Shown piece after piece: positions 14,914 to 20,700 of a stretch of 64,000 bases of DNA. Every line of letters begins with the position of its first letter. Within the stretch, counting starts at the first letter, position 1. The translations under genes were made by a program, and so were the position numbers. The stretch lies in the NCBI RefSeq assembly GCF_009914755.1, contig NC_060930.1; one strand, given 5' to 3'. The DNA is from the human T2T-CHM13v2.0 reference genome, Homo sapiens. Under the pieces are notes generated by a model that had not been told where the DNA came from, did no database searches, and saw nothing but the letters and a program-made list of their open reading frames with translations.

Positions 14914-15010
14914 CTGTACACATAAATCCAGAGGAGTTACTCCATTTTTATCTGGCAGATATTTGGCTCCTCGTAATAGTAGGATCTGTGCTGTATCTCT
15001 CTGACCATGA
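14914..15010 (-). CDS. HACE1: HACE1 coding exon (exon 8)
   Basis: 97 nt, phase 2/0, cag|T CAT...GTA CAG|gtgtgt; [32 protein letters not shown]. Confidence 0.97.
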
Positions 15011-15773
15011 CTGTGTGGAAATAGAAACAAGTTAAAAATACAATCTTTTTAAAGTCTTTCTCTATGAATTATGGATAGTTAATATGAGTCAATGGAAGAG
15101 TATCACTTTTAAAAATTAAGACAAGAGAATATGAAATACATCTTCATAATCACAAAAACTTTTCTCAATGTTAAGCCATGCTTTCACTACGTAGACCAGA
15201 ATGTGACCTATTAAATTTTAGAACTGAATTTGTGTCACATTTCCTAAAATAAGTCATAATATTTTGGGGATAAGTAACTACTAGTCAGGCTTCTGCTTTT
15301 TTTTTTTTTCTTACATTCACTTCCTAATCCCTCTCTCCACCTTAACTTGACCATTTGCAACTTTAGCCTGACCTTCTTCCTACCACACACATCCAAGTCT
15401 CTAGGCTTCTTAATCCAAAAGAACCTCAAGAGTCAGAACAAAAGTACATTTTATGGCACACTTGTAATACTTTGTAAAAAAAGAAAAAAATTAAAAGGAA
15501 GGAAGGAGAAAAGTAAAACCAATGTAAGAGAACCTGGGGAAAAAGGGAACATGAAGTGGGGTTATTAGCCAAAAATACTATCTAGCTTTCGATCTTCATT
15601 TTATCAACCCACTCAGTTTGGCTTCTGCAGATAGGTATTCAATCTGCCCTAGAATGAACTCTCCTATCCATATGCCTCATTCCCTGATTGCCCTCCTTCT
15701 TGTAGAAGTAGAATTGTGTAACTATCACTCCAGGGAAATTAATGTTAACGGCTGATTCTTAAGAAATGCCCAG

Positions 15774-16094
15774 GGCCAGGCATGGTGGCTCACACCTGTA
15801 ATCCCAGCACTTTGAGAGGCCGGGGTAGGTGGATCACCTGAGGTCAGGAGTTCCAGACCAGCCTGGCCAACATGGTGAAACCCTGTCTCTATTAAAAATA
15901 CAAAATTAGCTGGGCATGGTAGCCGGTGCCTGTAATCCCAGCTACTTGGGAGGCTAAGGCAGGAGAATCACTTGAACCCGGGAGGCAGAAGTTGCAGTGA
16001 GCCAAGAATGCCCCACTGCACTCCAGCCTGGGTAACAAGAGCAAAACCCCGTCTCGAAAAAAAAAAAAAGAAAGAAAGAAAGAAAAGAGAAGAA
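15774..16094 (+). mobile_element. AluS with A/(GAAA) tail
   Basis: TSD aagaaatgccca on both sides. Confidence 0.93.
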
Positions 16095-17172
16095 AAGAAA
16101 TGCCCAAATAAGTTGTACAGTTTGGAAGAGCATGAATCCAAAAAGAACTCTGTAGATGAGAAAAGCAAGTAATCTAAGCACAGGTGAAACTAGAACTCAG
16201 GTACCTGGGCTTCTAGACCTATACTCTTTCCACAATAACATTACCTAAAGAGGCATGTCATTTCACAAAGAAAAACACTACACAGATTTCTCAGAAACTT
16301 AAAAAACAAAACACTATTCATTCTCTTTCACAAAACGGCACTGTATGAAGAATAATTTAAAACCAATTGGAATTAAAGTTTTTTTAAAAAAAACTTAATG
16401 GTATCCTACTACGAATCTAGTGCCAGAAAACTCTGCAACGTTATTATAGGTCTATCACTCTCTTGATACTTTATTATTATACTGATTATCTTCCTTAATA
16501 CCAATAAGCCCTAACTTAAGAATAATATCTAATTTATTCTAGAAAAATCAAAAAATAAATTAGCAATCCCTTTGAAAGCAACAATAATCAGCTTTACCGG
16601 CATCAAGCAAGAAGTCCTCATCAAGCATCACTTGTCATTAAGCTCAAAGTGTTGGTCAAGATGTTATAAACAATAGCTAACAGTGGTTAATGTTTCATTT
16701 ACACTGTTCCATTCTTTAACACGCCTAAAAATAGAGGCCAAGTGAAAAGCAACTAACTTGAGCTTAATTTATTTAGGGATATAGTGATACTTTTGCTAGT
16801 AGCCAAGGTTCTGAGGAATCCATCTTATAAAACTGCTGAGTTCAATTTTAATGATATCTCTTTTACAGTTCTTTAATATCCATGTGTCCAATTTTTTCCA
16901 ATTAAATTGTAAACTTCCTGACAGTAGGCTTGTTCCATAGCACCAAGCATGGCAGTTGTCTTATAGCATGTACTCAATACATTCAATGAATTGTATTATA
17001 GGCTTTAATTTCAGACACCATTCATTTGACAAATAAGTATTAAAGACAATGCTGCACTCTAGAAAATAACAAGAGACCTGAAACACAATTTATTTAGGAT
17101 ATACTAGGTAACAAGCATTATGCTCAATCCTCTGTGCAAAGTCTGACTTAACGGTGACACTGTTATAAGCAT

Positions 17173-17531
17173 TGTTAAATTAAGCAAACAGGAGGCCATT
17201 AGCCTGAGACTGTCACTATACTTTTGAGTTCCTCTGTAACAAACTTCAACCTAACTTGGGAGTATATATTTTGCAACAAAGAGCAGTTTCAATGAATCAG
17301 ACAGCCAATTCTTCACACCATGACCAAATTAGGCAAACACACACATAAGGGTAGTCAGTTGGGTGATTTCTCTACTTTGCTTCCATATTCAGCCTACAAA
17401 AGCTCATTACTTACAAATTGCTGGGAAGAGCTCTCTCACCCGCTTCTGATTCTGAGTGCTGCCTGATTCGTGAATTGTTTTTCATTTAAATAAACTTTAA
17501 ATTTATTTTTTCTAAGATTTTTATTTTAACA
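17173..17531 (+). mobile_element. ERV1 solo LTR (LTR54/MER57-like) inserted in a MIR
   Basis: TGTTAAA...TTTTAACA termini, AATAAA near the end, degenerate 4-bp TSD gcat/gtat. Confidence 0.75.
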
Positions 17532-17733
17532 GTATTCACCCAATTTTTCAGATGAGAAAACCATGGCTCAAGAGTATAATGGAGTTGCTCGAGATGAACA
17601 GTTACATGGCAGACCAGAATTTGAATCTGCATCAGTCTGACTCCAAAATCCTTCAACAATATCATGCTGCTCTAGCAAGATAAACAGAGATTGCCCTTTA
17701 TGTTTTATAACCTTTAAAAGTAAACAATTTAGT

Positions 17734-20700
17734 CTCAAGACTCCCATTCCAAGATGGCCGAATATGAACAGCTCCGGTCTGCAGCTCCTAGCATGACTGA
17801 CACAGAAGACGGGTGATTTCTGCATTTCCAAATGAGGTACCTGGTCGATCTCATTGGGACTGGTTGGACAGTAGGTGCAGCCCACGGAGGGTGAGCCAAA
17901 GTAGGGCGGGGCATCACCTCACTTGGGAAGCTCAAGGGGTCAGGGGATTTCCCTTTCCTAGCCAAGGGAAGCCGTGACAGACTACCTGGAAAAACGGGAC
18001 ACTCCTGCCAAAATACGGCGCTTTTCCCAAGGTCTTAGTAAACGACACACCAGGAGATTCCATCCCGTGCCTGGCTCAGCGGGTCCCATGCCCACAGAGC
18101 CTTCCTCACTGCTAGCGCAGCAGTCTGAGATAGTCCTGCCAGGCTGCATGCAGCCTGGCGGGGGTAGGGGCATCTGCCATTACTGGGGCTTGAGTAGGTA
18201 AACAAAGCGACAGGGAAGCTCAAACTAGGCGGAGCCCACTGCAGCTCAGCAAGGCCTACTGCCTCCATAGACTCCACTTCTGTGGGCAGGGCATAGCTGA
18301 AAAAAAGGCAGCAGATAACTTCTGCAGACTGAAATGTCACTGTCTGACAGCTCAGAAGAGAGCAGTGGTTCTCCCACCACAGCCTTTGAGCTCTGAGAAC
18401 GGACAGACTGCCTCCTCAAGTGGGTCCCTGACCCCTGTGTAGCCTAACTAGGAGACACCTCCTAGTAGGGGCAACAGACACCTCATATAGGCGGGTGCCC
18501 CTCTGGGATGAAGCTTCCAGAGGAAGGAACAGGCAGCAATATTTGCTGTTCTGCAGCCTCTGCTGGTGATACCCAGGCAAACAGGGTCTGGAATGGACCT
18601 CCAGGAAACTCCAACAGACCTGCAGCTGAGGGACCTGACTGTTAGAAGGAAAACTAAGAAAGGAGTAGCATCAACATCAACAAAAAGGACATCCACAACA
18701 AAACTTAATCTGTAGGTAACCAACATCAAAGACCAAAGGTAGACAAAACCACAAAGATGGAGAGAAACCAGAGCAGAAAAGCCGAAAATTCTAAAAACCA
18801 GAGCACCTCTTCTCCTCCAACTGCTCACAGCTCCTTGCCAGCAATGGAACAAAGTTGGATGGAGAATGACTTTGACGAGTTCACAGAAGTAGGCTTCAGA
18901 AGGCTGGTAATAACAACTTCTCCGAGCTAAAGGAGGATGTTCTAACCCATCACAAGGAAGCTAAAAACCTTGAAAAAAGGTTAGACGAATGGCTAACTGG
19001 AATAAATAGTGTAGAGAAGATCTTAAATGACCTGATGGAGCTGAAAACCATGGCTAGAGAACTTCATAATGCATGCACAAGCTTCAATAGCCGATTCGAT
19101 CAAGTGGAAGAAAGGATATCAGTGATTGAAGATCAAATTAATGACATAAAGTGAAAAGACAAGATTAGAGAAAAAAAGAGCAAAAAGAAATGAACAAAGC
19201 CTCCAAGAAATATGGGACTATGTGAAAAGACCAATCTATGTTTGATTGGTGTACCTGAAAGTGTCAGGGAGAATGGAACCAAGTTGGAAAACACTCTTTA
19301 GTATATTATCCAGGAGGACTTCCCCAACCTAGCAAGGCAAGCCAACATTCAAATTCAGGAAATACAGAGAACGCCACAAAGATGCTCCTCAAGAAGAGCA
19401 ACCCCAAGACACATAACTGTCAGATTTATCAAGGTTGAAATGAAGGAAAAAATATTAAGGGCAGTCAGAGAGAAAGGTCAGTTACCCACAAAGGGAAGCC
19501 CATCAGACTAACAGCGGATCTCTCGGCAGAAACTCTACAAGCCAGAAGAGAGTGGGGGCTAATATTTGACATTCTTAAAGAAAATAATTTTCAACTCAGA
19601 ATTTCATATCCAGCCAAACTAAGCTTCACAAGTGAAGGAGAAATAAAATCCTTTACAGACATGCAAATGCCGAGAGATTTTGTCACCACCAGGCCTGCCT
19701 TACAAGAGCTCCTCCTGAAGGAAGCACTAAACATGGAAAGGTACCAGCCATGGCAAAAACATGCCAAATTGTGAAGACCATCAATGCTATGAAGAAACTG
19801 CATCAATTAACGGGCAAGATAACCAGCTAACATAATGACAGGATCAAATTCACACATAACAATATTAACCTTAAATGTAAATGGGCTAAATGCCCCAATT
19901 AAAAGACAGACTGGTAAACTGGATAAAGAGTCAAGACCCATCAGTGTGCTGTATTCAGGAGACCCATCTCACCTGCAGAAACACACATAGGCTCAAAATA
20001 AAGGGATAGAGGAAGATCTACCAAGCAAACGAAAAGCCAAAAAAAAAAAAAAAAAAGCAGGGGTTGCAATCCAGGTCTCTGATAAAACAGACGTTAGACC
20101 AAGGAAGATCAAAACAGACAAGGAAGGACATTACATAATGGTAAAGGAATCAATGCAACAAGAAGAGCTAACTATCCTAAATATATATGCACTCAACACA
20201 GGAGCACGCAGACTCATAAAGCAAGTCCTTAGAGACATACAAAGAGACTTAGACTCCCACACAATAATAATGGGAGACTTAAACACCCCACTGTCAATAA
20301 TAGACAGATCAACATGACAGAAGGCTAACAAGGATATCCAGGAATTGAACTCAGCTCTGGACCAAGTGGACCTAATAGACATCTACAGAACTCTCCACCC
20401 CAAATCAACAGAATATACATTCTTCTCAGCACGACATCACACTTATTCTAAAATTGACCACATAATTCGAAGTAAAGCACTCCTCAGCAAATGTAAAAGA
20501 ACAGAAATCACAAACTGTCTCTCAGAGCACAGTGCAATCAAACTAGAACTCAGGATTAACAAACTCATTCAAGACTGCACAACTACATGGAAACTGAACA
20601 ACCTGCTCCTGAATGACTATTGGGTAAATAACGAAATGAAGGCAGAAATAAAGATGTTCTTTGAAACCAATGAGAACAAAGACACAACATACCAGAATCT

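What the first reader, a model, noticed from the sequence alone, without database searches (positions are those of the whole stretch)
14914..18180. L1 antisense ORF0 has a phase-2 donor that would splice in frame to HACE1 exon 8 (candidate ORF0-HACE1 fusion)
Seen: the full-length L1 lies antisense in intron 7, so its 5'UTR antisense promoter points in the HACE1 direction, about 3 kb upstream of exon 8. The ORF0 homologue (18173->17982) ends TCC AG|GTAGTC with the exon boundary at 17986 (phase 2). Exon 7 also ends in AG, and exon 8 begins with T, so the splice gives ...[13 protein letters not shown]..., in frame through the rest of HACE1. The other ORF0 donor, after EPG, reads GC here. Established: L1 antisense promoters make chimeric transcripts (e.g. 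L1-MET), ORF0 can fuse to downstream exons through its donors, and the HACE1 N-terminal helix mediates autoinhibitory dimerisation. Inference: a protein of about 62 L1 residues plus HACE1 206-909 would lack the N-terminal helix and about four ankyrin repeats but keep the HECT domain. It could be deregulated, and expressed on L1 demethylation even when the main promoter is silenced. Caveats: the element is old, the donor is only moderate, and the ancestral ORF0 ATG (18180) is out of frame, so initiation must use 18173 or the later in-frame ATGs (one in GGCATGG context).
Basis: partly seen in the sequence, partly recalled or inferred. Interest (0 to 1): 0.85.

Follow-up and report, generated by a model that had tools for sequence, protein, structure and literature searches.

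The report
Old L1 remnant upstream of HACE1 exon 8
An old, decayed L1 retrotransposon in a HACE1 intron still carries an antisense reading frame and a weak splice-donor motif that would join in frame to the next exon on paper, but this layout is common for such elements and nothing found here shows it is used.

Summary
A full-length L1 with target-site duplications lies on the + strand in HACE1 intron 7. From ATG 18173 on the minus strand, an ORF0-like frame runs 62 codons plus 2 nt to CAG|GTAGTC (exon end 17986). That phase matches exon 8, whose first full codon is residue 207, so the split codon is S206.

These features are inherited from the family and the rest is coincidence:
- 29 of 30 related copies have CAG|GT at this site.
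- 13 of 29 relatives keep an open, ATG-headed frame to it.
- 4 of 10 local HACE1 introns are phase 2.

Other points argue against use:
- The donor scores below all 11 real donors in the window.
- A strong-context ATG (18180) lies upstream and out of frame, because of a TGCA duplication found only in this copy.
- The 5'UTR is CpG-depleted (o/e 0.27).
- Nine poly(A) hexamers and nine competing acceptor-like sites lie before exon 8.
- No RefSeq model starts here, and an EST-based list of 988 L1 antisense transcripts lacks HACE1.
- One published table lists an unspliced, low-count L1PA6–HACE1 "chimera" at the L1 5' edge, which could equally be pre-mRNA.

Verdict: an ordinary L1PA6 relic. The fusion is possible on paper and unproven.

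The parts
17739..23877 (+). Full-length, decayed L1 (L1PA6 by position match to a published table) in HACE1 intron 7, antisense to the gene.
   Evidence: Pfam Tnp_22_dsRBD (19439-19774) and RVT_1 (21202-22523) on the + strand, with only short ORFs. Homology to 29 other copies ends at about 17744. A-rich tail at 23850-23877. Length and spacing fit 'L1PA6 6113 bp +' in the Pinson 2022 supplement.
17722..17738 (.). 5' copy of the target-site duplication (AAACAATTTAGTCTCAA).
   Evidence: It matches 23878-23895 except for one extra A.
23878..23895 (.). 3' copy of the target-site duplication.
17982..18173 (-). ORF0-like frame as it now reads: ATG 18173, 63 codons, TAG 17984-17982. The body is homologous to the family ORF0.
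   Evidence: Pfam found no family. The single-sequence fold was not confident, mean pLDDT 53.6.
18112..18180 (-). Ancestral ORF0 start codon (18180-18178; G at -3 and G at +4). It now heads a 22-codon out-of-frame upstream ORF that ends at TAG 18114-18112.
   Evidence: ATG at this column in 29 of 30 copies.
18149..18152 (-). TGCA tandem duplication (TGCATGCA at 18152-18145) that shifts the ancestral frame. Found only in this copy.
   Evidence: Alignment of 30 copies: 1 of 30 carries it. Distance from ATG to donor is 195 nt here, against 191 nt in 21 of 29 relatives.
17980..17988 (-). Donor-like site A, CAG|GTAGTC. Last exon base 17986, phase 2 in the ORF0 frame.
   Evidence: CAG|GT in 29 of 30 copies; the shorter GTAGTC form in 11 of 30.
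17835..17843 (-). Donor-like site B, CAG|GTACCT. Last exon base 17841. It lies downstream of the ORF0 stop, so it cannot make a fusion reading frame.
   Evidence: CAGGT in 21 of 30 copies.
18069..18071 (-). 'EPG' site, CCAG|GC. GC here where a younger L1PA2 copy has GT.
   Evidence: GC in 29 of 30 copies. GT in the L1PA2 copy L031.
18087..18089 (-). In-frame ATG in strong context (G at -3, G at +4), 34 codons before donor A. The most plausible start if the fusion were ever translated.
   Evidence: ATG in 16 of 30 copies and GTG in 14.
14914..15010 (-). HACE1 exon 8. The acceptor is ...TTTCCACACAG|T. It encodes residues 207-238 plus the third base of codon 206.
   Evidence: Hub annotation.
29317..29399 (-). 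HACE1 exon 7. It ends ...GCAG (phase 2) and carries the first helix (TPLY-FAC) of the ankyrin repeat that exon 8 completes.
   Evidence: Pfam Ank_4 at E 2.4e-5.

Best explanation
This is an ordinary, tens-of-millions-of-years-old full-length L1 (L1PA6) that inserted antisense into HACE1 intron 7 and has since decayed.

Its antisense strand keeps what most copies of its age class keep:
- the ORF0 start codon;
- most of the ORF0 body;
- the two CAG|GT motifs that younger L1s are reported to use as ORF0 splice donors.

A TGCA duplication private to this copy broke the ancestral ORF0 frame. By accident it put a neighbouring weak-context ATG (18173) in frame with the ORF0 body. The phase-2 end of ORF0 happens to match the phase-2 intron in which the element sits.

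The ORF0-exon 8 reading is therefore real on paper but coincidental. Most likely it yields no meaningful amount of fusion protein. At most, the old antisense promoter gives rare, mostly unspliced or prematurely terminated RNA.

Shown: the anatomy, the homology, the frame and the base rates. Inferred: the lack of use.
For: Family inheritance:
- The own-genome search gave 3014 first-look candidates for the ORF0 region. The best non-self match is 86% identical.
- 29 aligned relatives are 83-88% identical to the window copy, median 85%.
- CAG|GT is at donor A in 29 of 30 copies. The distance from the ancestral ATG to the donor is 191 nt, i.e. phase 2, in 21 of 29 relatives.

Base rates:
- 13 of 29 relatives have GT plus an open frame with an in-frame ATG at least 30 codons upstream.
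- 4 of 10 local introns are phase 2.

Weak signals:
- Donor A scores 4.46. The 11 annotated donors in the window score 4.63-11.12, so A is below all of them.
- 293 of 3926 GT sites score at least as high (recalled matrix).
- ATG 18180 (G at -3, G at +4) precedes ATG 18173 (C at -3, C at +4) and is out of frame.
- If transcription starts further upstream, ATG 18268 opens a 77-codon ORF in another frame that overlaps all the in-frame ATGs.
- The 5'UTR has 19 CpG in 907 nt, o/e 0.27.
- Nine AATAAA/ATTAAA hexamers lie before exon 8, the first at 17525.
- 9 of 210 AG sites between donor A and exon 8 have a crude acceptor score at least equal to exon 8's.

No record of use:
- The hub's RefSeq table shows no exon in the L1.
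- The 10 supplementary files of Criscione 2016 hold 0 mentions of HACE1.
- No paper text links HACE1 with an L1 antisense promoter, L1PA6, ORF0 or chimeric retrotransposon transcripts in a relevant way.
Against: - L1PA2-8 elements do show antisense-promoter ESTs at the same 5'UTR location as L1HS, and 57 ORF0-exon fusions out of about 3200 loci have been reported (passages of Criscione 2016). The mechanism is real, and this age class is not excluded.
- Pinson 2022 supplement file 2 lists an L1 chimeric transcript (Id_1315) for what is, by position, this very L1PA6 in HACE1. It has a value of 1 in 4 of 11 numeric columns (header not seen).
- By U1 duplex energy, donor A (-8.1 kcal/mol) lies inside the range of the real donors (-5.1 to -11.5) and is stronger than 4 of the 11.
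- Exon 8 has a good acceptor and is the first annotated one downstream.
- I had no RNA-seq, CAGE or long-read data. Absence from RefSeq and from an EST catalogue is weak evidence against a rare or tissue-restricted transcript.
Confidence: 0.8

Rival explanations
1. The L1PA6 antisense promoter fires at a low level in some cell types. A fraction of its transcripts use donor A and splice to exon 8, giving a rare chimeric L1-HACE1 mRNA with no selected function.
For: - The geometry and the frame are right.
- Elements of the L1PA2-8 age class give antisense ESTs.
- An L1PA6-HACE1 chimera is listed in brain/glioma RNA-seq.
- The donor motif is conserved in the family.
- Its U1 pairing energy is mid-range.
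Against: - By coordinate transfer, the listed chimera covers only about window 17648-17858. That is L1 nt 1-115 plus 96 nt of flank. It is contiguous with the genome and unspliced across donor B, and it lies downstream of donor A.
- HACE1 pre-mRNA runs through here on the same strand and would give the same reads.
- The locus is not in the EST catalogue, and there is no RefSeq model.
- The matrix score of the donor is weak, and early poly(A) hexamers follow.
Confidence: 0.12
2. A regulated ORF0-HACE1(206-909) fusion protein lacks the N-terminal helix and four and a half ankyrin repeats. It acts as a deregulated or dominant-negative HECT ligase when the L1 is de-repressed.
For: - The frame is open.
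- Residue 206 is confirmed.
- Titles and abstract openings of two HACE1 structure papers name N-terminal-helix dimerisation and autoinhibition (listing only).
Against: - All the points against the first rival apply.
- Translation is handicapped by the strong out-of-frame ATG 18180 just upstream of the weak ATG 18173.
- The breakpoint cuts an ankyrin repeat between its two helices. That would leave an uncapped partial repeat stack.
- From recall of the structure papers, the ankyrin repeats contribute to RAC1 recognition, so substrate targeting would probably be lost.
- With CpG o/e at 0.27, methylation control is less likely to be the switch.
- The L1 part has no family match and no confident fold.
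Confidence: 0.03
3. Donor A is used occasionally from within HACE1 pre-mRNA, not from the L1 promoter. It would form the 3' end of a cryptic L1-derived exon between exons 7 and 8, which would be a frame-breaking 'poison' exon.
For: Five acceptor-like sites with a crude score of 9 or more lie upstream of donor A on the minus strand. One is TTATCTGCTGCCTTTTTTTCAG| at 18296. Each resulting exon would have a length not divisible by 3 and 1-3 in-frame stops.
Against: No RefSeq transcript has such an exon (hub table). Donor A is weak. The scores are crude, home-made ones.
Confidence: 0.05

Closest known systems
L1 ORF0 loci and ORF0-exon fusions (Denli et al. 2015). I did not see that paper; I know it only through passages of Criscione 2016 and from recall.
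   Same: - An antisense ORF in the L1 5'UTR downstream of the antisense promoter.
- The same start-codon column, with ATG in 29 of 30 relatives.
- The same ORF body.
- A donor motif at the ORF end that leaves phase 2.
   Different: - The canonical frame is broken by a private TGCA duplication.
- The internal 'EPG' donor is GC, as in 29 of 30 copies of this age.
- No fusion transcript or protein has been observed for this locus.
- Whether HACE1 is among the 57 reported fusions could not be checked.
L1 antisense-promoter chimeric transcripts such as L1-MET (recalled), and the catalogued LCTs of Criscione 2016 and Pinson 2022.
   Same: A full-length primate L1 lies antisense in an intron, so its antisense promoter faces downstream exons of the host gene. 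The locus appears as LCT Id_1315 (L1PA6, HACE1) in the Pinson 2022 supplement.
   Different: The well-studied cases have spliced ESTs or cDNAs and usually involve younger, CpG-rich L1s. Here the only listed evidence is unspliced and low-count, and cannot be told apart from pre-mRNA. HACE1 is absent from the EST-based list.
Autoinhibited dimeric HACE1 (PDB 8h8x, 8pwl, 8q0n; PMC10520629 and PMC10873202, listing only).
   Same: The hypothetical product would keep residues 206-909, including the HECT domain.
   Different: It would lack the N-terminal helix and ankyrin repeats up to mid-repeat. No such natural isoform was found in anything I saw.

Membership tests
Full-length primate L1 (L1PA) insertion | ORF1 and ORF2 homology in one orientation | tested here: met
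   Tnp_22_dsRBD at E 2.3e-36 and RVT_1 at E 5e-29 and 8e-10, all on the + strand. The ORFs are broken into short pieces.
Full-length primate L1 (L1PA) insertion | 5'UTR homologous to other L1PA 5'UTRs, reaching the element's 5' end | tested here: met
   29 genomic copies align over about 670-680 nt at 84-88% identity and all end at window ~17744.
Full-length primate L1 (L1PA) insertion | A-rich tail and target-site duplication | tested here: met
   A 17/18-nt duplication at 17722-17738 and 23878-23895, with an A-rich tail before the 3' copy.
Subfamily L1PA6 | Diagnostic subfamily positions against reference consensus sequences | not testable with these tools
   No consensus library was at hand. 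The assignment rests on matching position, length (6113) and spacing to the L1PA6 row in the Pinson 2022 supplement. The L1PA7 and L1PA2 neighbours were found within about 300 nt of the predicted places.
L1 ORF0 locus | Antisense ORF starting at the conserved strong-context ATG and open to the end | tested here: not met
   ATG 18180 is present with G at -3 and G at +4, but its frame stops after 22 codons because of a TGCA duplication. The ORF body is open only from ATG 18173, 18149 or 18089.
L1 ORF0 locus | Splice donors within or at the end of ORF0 | tested here: inconclusive
   The end donor is present as CAG|GTAGTC. The internal site is GC. I recall the positions of the published donors; I did not read them. 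Use of either site cannot be tested here.
L1 antisense-promoter chimeric transcript / ORF0-gene fusion | Transcription start on the antisense strand of the L1 5'UTR | not testable with these tools
   No CAGE, EST or RNA-seq data were available. The one listed LCT does not locate a start site.
L1 antisense-promoter chimeric transcript / ORF0-gene fusion | Spliced junction from an L1 donor to a host exon | not testable with these tools
   No junction data were available. Indirect evidence: no RefSeq model (hub table), and 0 mentions of HACE1 in the 10 supplement files of Criscione 2016.
L1 antisense-promoter chimeric transcript / ORF0-gene fusion | Reading frame continuous from ORF0 into the host coding sequence | tested here: met
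   The in-silico join of 18173..17986 with exons 8-14 is open throughout and equals the native frame.

The most novel reading that the evidence does not exclude
In germ cells, embryonic cells, or tumours with de-repressed L1s, this L1PA6 antisense promoter drives an mRNA spliced 17986>15010. Translation starts mainly at ATG 18089. The product is an N-terminally truncated HACE1 (about 34-62 L1 residues plus residues 206-909). It escapes N-helix-mediated autoinhibitory dimerisation, or poisons wild-type HACE1. This would be a catarrhine-specific way of altering a tumour-suppressor ligase without touching its own promoter.
Probability: 0.03. Interest if true: 0.55.

Novelty: new member of a known kind. 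Interest (0 to 1): 0.15.

Why it matters
HACE1 is a tumour-suppressor E3 ligase. If an L1-driven, N-terminally truncated form existed, it would add an example of retrotransposon promoters rewiring a disease gene.

What the evidence supports is more modest. Roughly half of old L1 copies keep a fusion-capable ORF0 remnant, and a third or so of introns have the right phase. In-frame 'paper fusions' like this one should therefore be common, and they need transcript evidence before they deserve attention.

The analysis also shows that a junction read alone would not prove promoter use. Cryptic acceptors upstream of the donor could produce the same junction from ordinary pre-mRNA.

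Tried and rejected
- **Earlier findings.** The search of earlier findings was not open.
- **Paper reading closed.** As a result I could not read:
  - the header of the Pinson 2022 table;
  - the L1PA6 row of the Lanciano 2024 methylation table;
  - the Garza 2023 supplements;
  - Denli 2015;
  - the HACE1 structure papers.
- **Rfam** on 14800-18700: 0 matches at gathering score.
- **Pfam** on the 63-aa ORF0-like peptide: 0 families. Exon 8 alone (32 aa): 0 families at E 0.1, although phmmer against PDB aligns it to HACE1 and to many designed ankyrin proteins.
- **AlphaFold2, single sequence,** on the ORF0-like peptide: mean pLDDT 53.6, no residue at 70 or above. This is uninformative, because single-sequence folds are often poor.
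- **Fusion protein not submitted.** I did not send it to any fold or search tool, because it is a joined sequence.
- **Donor scoring.** No proper MaxEnt tables are installed. I used a weight matrix recalled from memory and a U1 duplex energy. The two disagree on how weak donor A is: below all 11 real donors by the matrix, stronger than 4 of 11 by the energy.
- **Idea rejected.** I considered that the GC at the 'EPG' site is a lesion of this copy. It is the state in 29 of 30 copies.

Full report
**1. What is there**

Window 17739-23877 holds a full-length L1 on the + strand.
- Pfam finds the L1 ORF1 dsRBD-like domain at 19439-19774 (E 2.3e-36). It finds reverse transcriptase at 21202-22523 (E 5e-29 and 8e-10), all on the + strand.
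- The reading frames are broken into pieces of at most 259 codons.
- Homology of the 5'UTR to 29 other genomic copies stops at about window 17744.
- The 3' end is A-rich. A 17/18-nt target-site duplication flanks the element at 17722-17738 and 23878-23895.
- HACE1 is on the minus strand, so the L1 is antisense to it in intron 7. Its 5'UTR faces exon 8 (15010..14914). The L1 edge is 2.7 kb from exon 8.

Subfamily:
- A row in supplement file 2 of Pinson et al. 2022 (PMC9396940; I saw only two passages) lists a 6113-bp + strand L1PA6 in HACE1.
- By length, order and spacing relative to two other full-length L1s of the gene, that row is this element.
- I found those two neighbours, an L1PA7 and an L1PA2, within about 300 nt of the places predicted from the published coordinates.
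- The subfamily label is therefore taken from that table and was not tested here.
- Median identity to 29 relatives is 85%, as expected for an element tens of millions of years old. The calibration is recalled.

**2.

All of it is correct.
- From ATG 18173 the minus strand is open for 62 codons plus two bases, ending ...TCC AG|GTAGTC with the last exon base at 17986. Unspliced, the frame ends at TAG 17984-17982.
- Exon 7 ends ...GCAG and exon 8 starts with T.
- An in-silico join is open through all seven downstream exons in the window and is identical to the native frame from S206 on.
- phmmer against PDB places the first full codon of exon 8 at residue 207 of the 909-residue chain 8h8x_A. 'HACE1 206-909' is therefore right.
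- The ATG at 18180 is out of frame and stops after 22 codons.
- The 'EPG' site reads CCAG|GC.
- A second donor-like site, CAG|GTACCT, ends at 17841, after the ORF0 stop.
- An in-frame ATG in GGCATGG context lies at 18089.

**3. Where these features come from**

The own-genome search with the ORF0 region returned 3014 first-look candidates, of which 40 were scored. I aligned the 29 best non-self loci.
- CAG|GT occupies the donor A column in 29 of 30 copies, window included. The shorter GTAGTC form is in 11 of 30.
- The ancestral ATG is present in 29 of 30 copies.
- The distance from that ATG to the donor is 191 nt, phase 2, in 21 of 29 relatives. The phase-2 donor is thus a family trait.
- The window copy measures 195 nt because of a TGCA tandem duplication (18152-18145) seen in 1 of 30 copies.
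- That duplication breaks the canonical frame. It puts ATG 18173, which is ATG in 21 of 30 copies and normally out of frame, in register with the ORF0 body.
- The internal 'EPG' site is GC in 29 of 30 copies and GT in the younger L1PA2 copy of the same gene. GC is the state of this age class and not a private loss.

**4. Is the in-frame layout special?**

It is not.
- 13 of 29 relatives have GT plus an open frame with an in-frame ATG at least 30 codons before the donor. 11 of 29 have one at least 55 codons before.
- 4 of the 10 introns that follow in-window HACE1 exons are phase 2.
- Criscione 2016 quotes about 3200 genic ORF0 loci (passage). From that figure I infer that many in-frame 'paper fusions' should exist genome-wide. 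I did not count them.

**5. Would it work?**

Donor strength:
- With a donor weight matrix recalled from memory, donor A scores 4.46 and donor B 5.33. The 11 annotated donors in the window score 4.63-11.12, so A is below all of them.
- 293 of 3926 GT sites on this strand do at least as well as A.
- By U1 duplex energy A is mid-range. It gives -8.1 kcal/mol against -5.1 to -11.5 for the real donors, and is stronger than 4 of the 11.
- Calling the donor 'weak to moderate' is fair.

Obstacles between donor A and exon 8:
- 9 of 210 AG sites have a crude acceptor score at least equal to exon 8's.
- Nine poly(A) hexamers lie on this strand, the first at 17525.

Translation:
- The first ATG a scanning ribosome would meet in a typical antisense transcript is 18180, in strong context and out of frame.
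- ATG 18173 follows 7 nt later in weak context (C at -3, C at +4).
- If transcription starts further upstream, ATG 18268 opens a 77-codon ORF in another frame that overlaps every in-frame ATG.
- The best in-frame candidate is ATG 18089, which is 34 codons before the donor.

Promoter: the 5'UTR has 19 CpG in 907 nt, o/e 0.27. Control by DNA methylation is less obvious than for young L1s.

Protein:
- The breakpoint lies inside an ankyrin repeat. TPLY-FAC is in exon 7 and [15 protein letters not shown] in exon 8.
- The product would start with an uncapped half repeat.
- The 63-residue L1 part has no Pfam match and no confident fold.

**6. Records of use**

- The hub's RefSeq table shows 18 HACE1 transcripts and no exon in the L1.
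- Criscione et al. 2016 (PMC4908685) catalogued 988 EST-supported L1 antisense transcripts. HACE1 occurs 0 times in its main text and in its 10 supplementary files.
- Pinson et al. 2022 list LCT Id_1315 for this L1PA6:
  - By coordinate transfer it covers only about window 17648-17858. That is L1 nt 1-115 plus 96 nt of flank.
  - It has a value of 1 in 4 of 11 numeric columns (header not seen; file 1 of that paper was not searched).
  - The stretch is contiguous with the genome, lies past donor A, and spans donor B unspliced.
  - HACE1 pre-mRNA would give the same reads.
- Lanciano et al. 2024 (PMC10879037) have 10 'HACE1' occurrences in a methylation table. I saw only the L1PA2 and L1PA7 rows (file 7 not searched, file 4 cut).
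The L1PA6 row, the table headers, Garza 2023, Denli 2015 and the HACE1 structure papers went unread.
- Four full-text searches gave 0, 0, 1 and 1 papers: HACE1 with LINE-1 and antisense promoter; with L1PA6; with ORF0; and with chimeric transcript and retrotransposon. The two hits are an HSV-1 paper and a general review, judged from their titles only.
- These searches do not cover supplements or subscription journals.

**7. Interpretation**

The best reading is an ordinary L1PA6 relic. Its ORF0 remnant is splice- and frame-compatible with exon 8 by inheritance plus coincidence, and there is no evidence of use (confidence about 0.8).

| Alternative | Rough odds |
|---|---|
| Rare, non-functional spliced chimera | 0.12 |
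| Cryptic L1-derived exon from pre-mRNA using the same donor (five acceptor-like sites upstream) | 0.05 |

That part is N-terminal-helix dimerisation and autoinhibition.

**8. Comparison with what is known**

In kind, this is one more L1 ORF0 locus in an intron.
- It fails the strict definition of an intact ORF0, because the canonical frame is broken.
- The defining features of an antisense-promoter chimeric transcript could not be tested here. These are an antisense start site and a spliced junction.
- Novelty is low and interest is low.

Noticed in passing
Outside the window: L031 (G000:C6:105912300-105915300, L1 5' end near locus position 1306) and L032 (G000:C6:105931500-105934500, L1 5' end near 1362): HACE1 carries two more full-length + strand L1s whose antisense promoters also face the gene.
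- One is an L1PA2. In the Lanciano 2024 table its first methylation value is 0.11, while the other values seen in the row are 0.88 or above (header not seen).
- The other is an L1PA7. It has its own listed chimera, Id_1314, with non-zero values in 7 of 11 columns.
- In these copies the L1PA2 has no ORF of 40 codons or more from the canonical ORF0 ATG. The L1PA7 has GG instead of GT at donor A.
   Followed up: partly
window 42818-42911 (-): The alternative HACE1 exon of other transcripts lies wholly inside a masked repeat (42749-43128, hub table). Its acceptor is preceded by a run of 15 T. This looks like exonisation of an antisense repeat with an A-tail, probably an Alu. The family was not identified here.
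   Followed up: no
window 15300-16030 (-): Between the L1 and exon 8 there are acceptor-like and donor-like pairs that could define cryptic exons.
- Acceptor 15533 (TTCCCTTTTTCCCCAG|G) with donors at 15373 and 15315.
- Acceptor 16027 (…TTGTTACCCAG|GCT) with donor 15796 (CAG|GTGTGA).
The scores are crude, and none of these is annotated.
   Followed up: no
window 61240 (-): The annotated donor of the exon 61315..61240 reads GCA|GTAAGT, with A and not G as the last exon base. This is unusual but has a perfect intron side.
   Followed up: no
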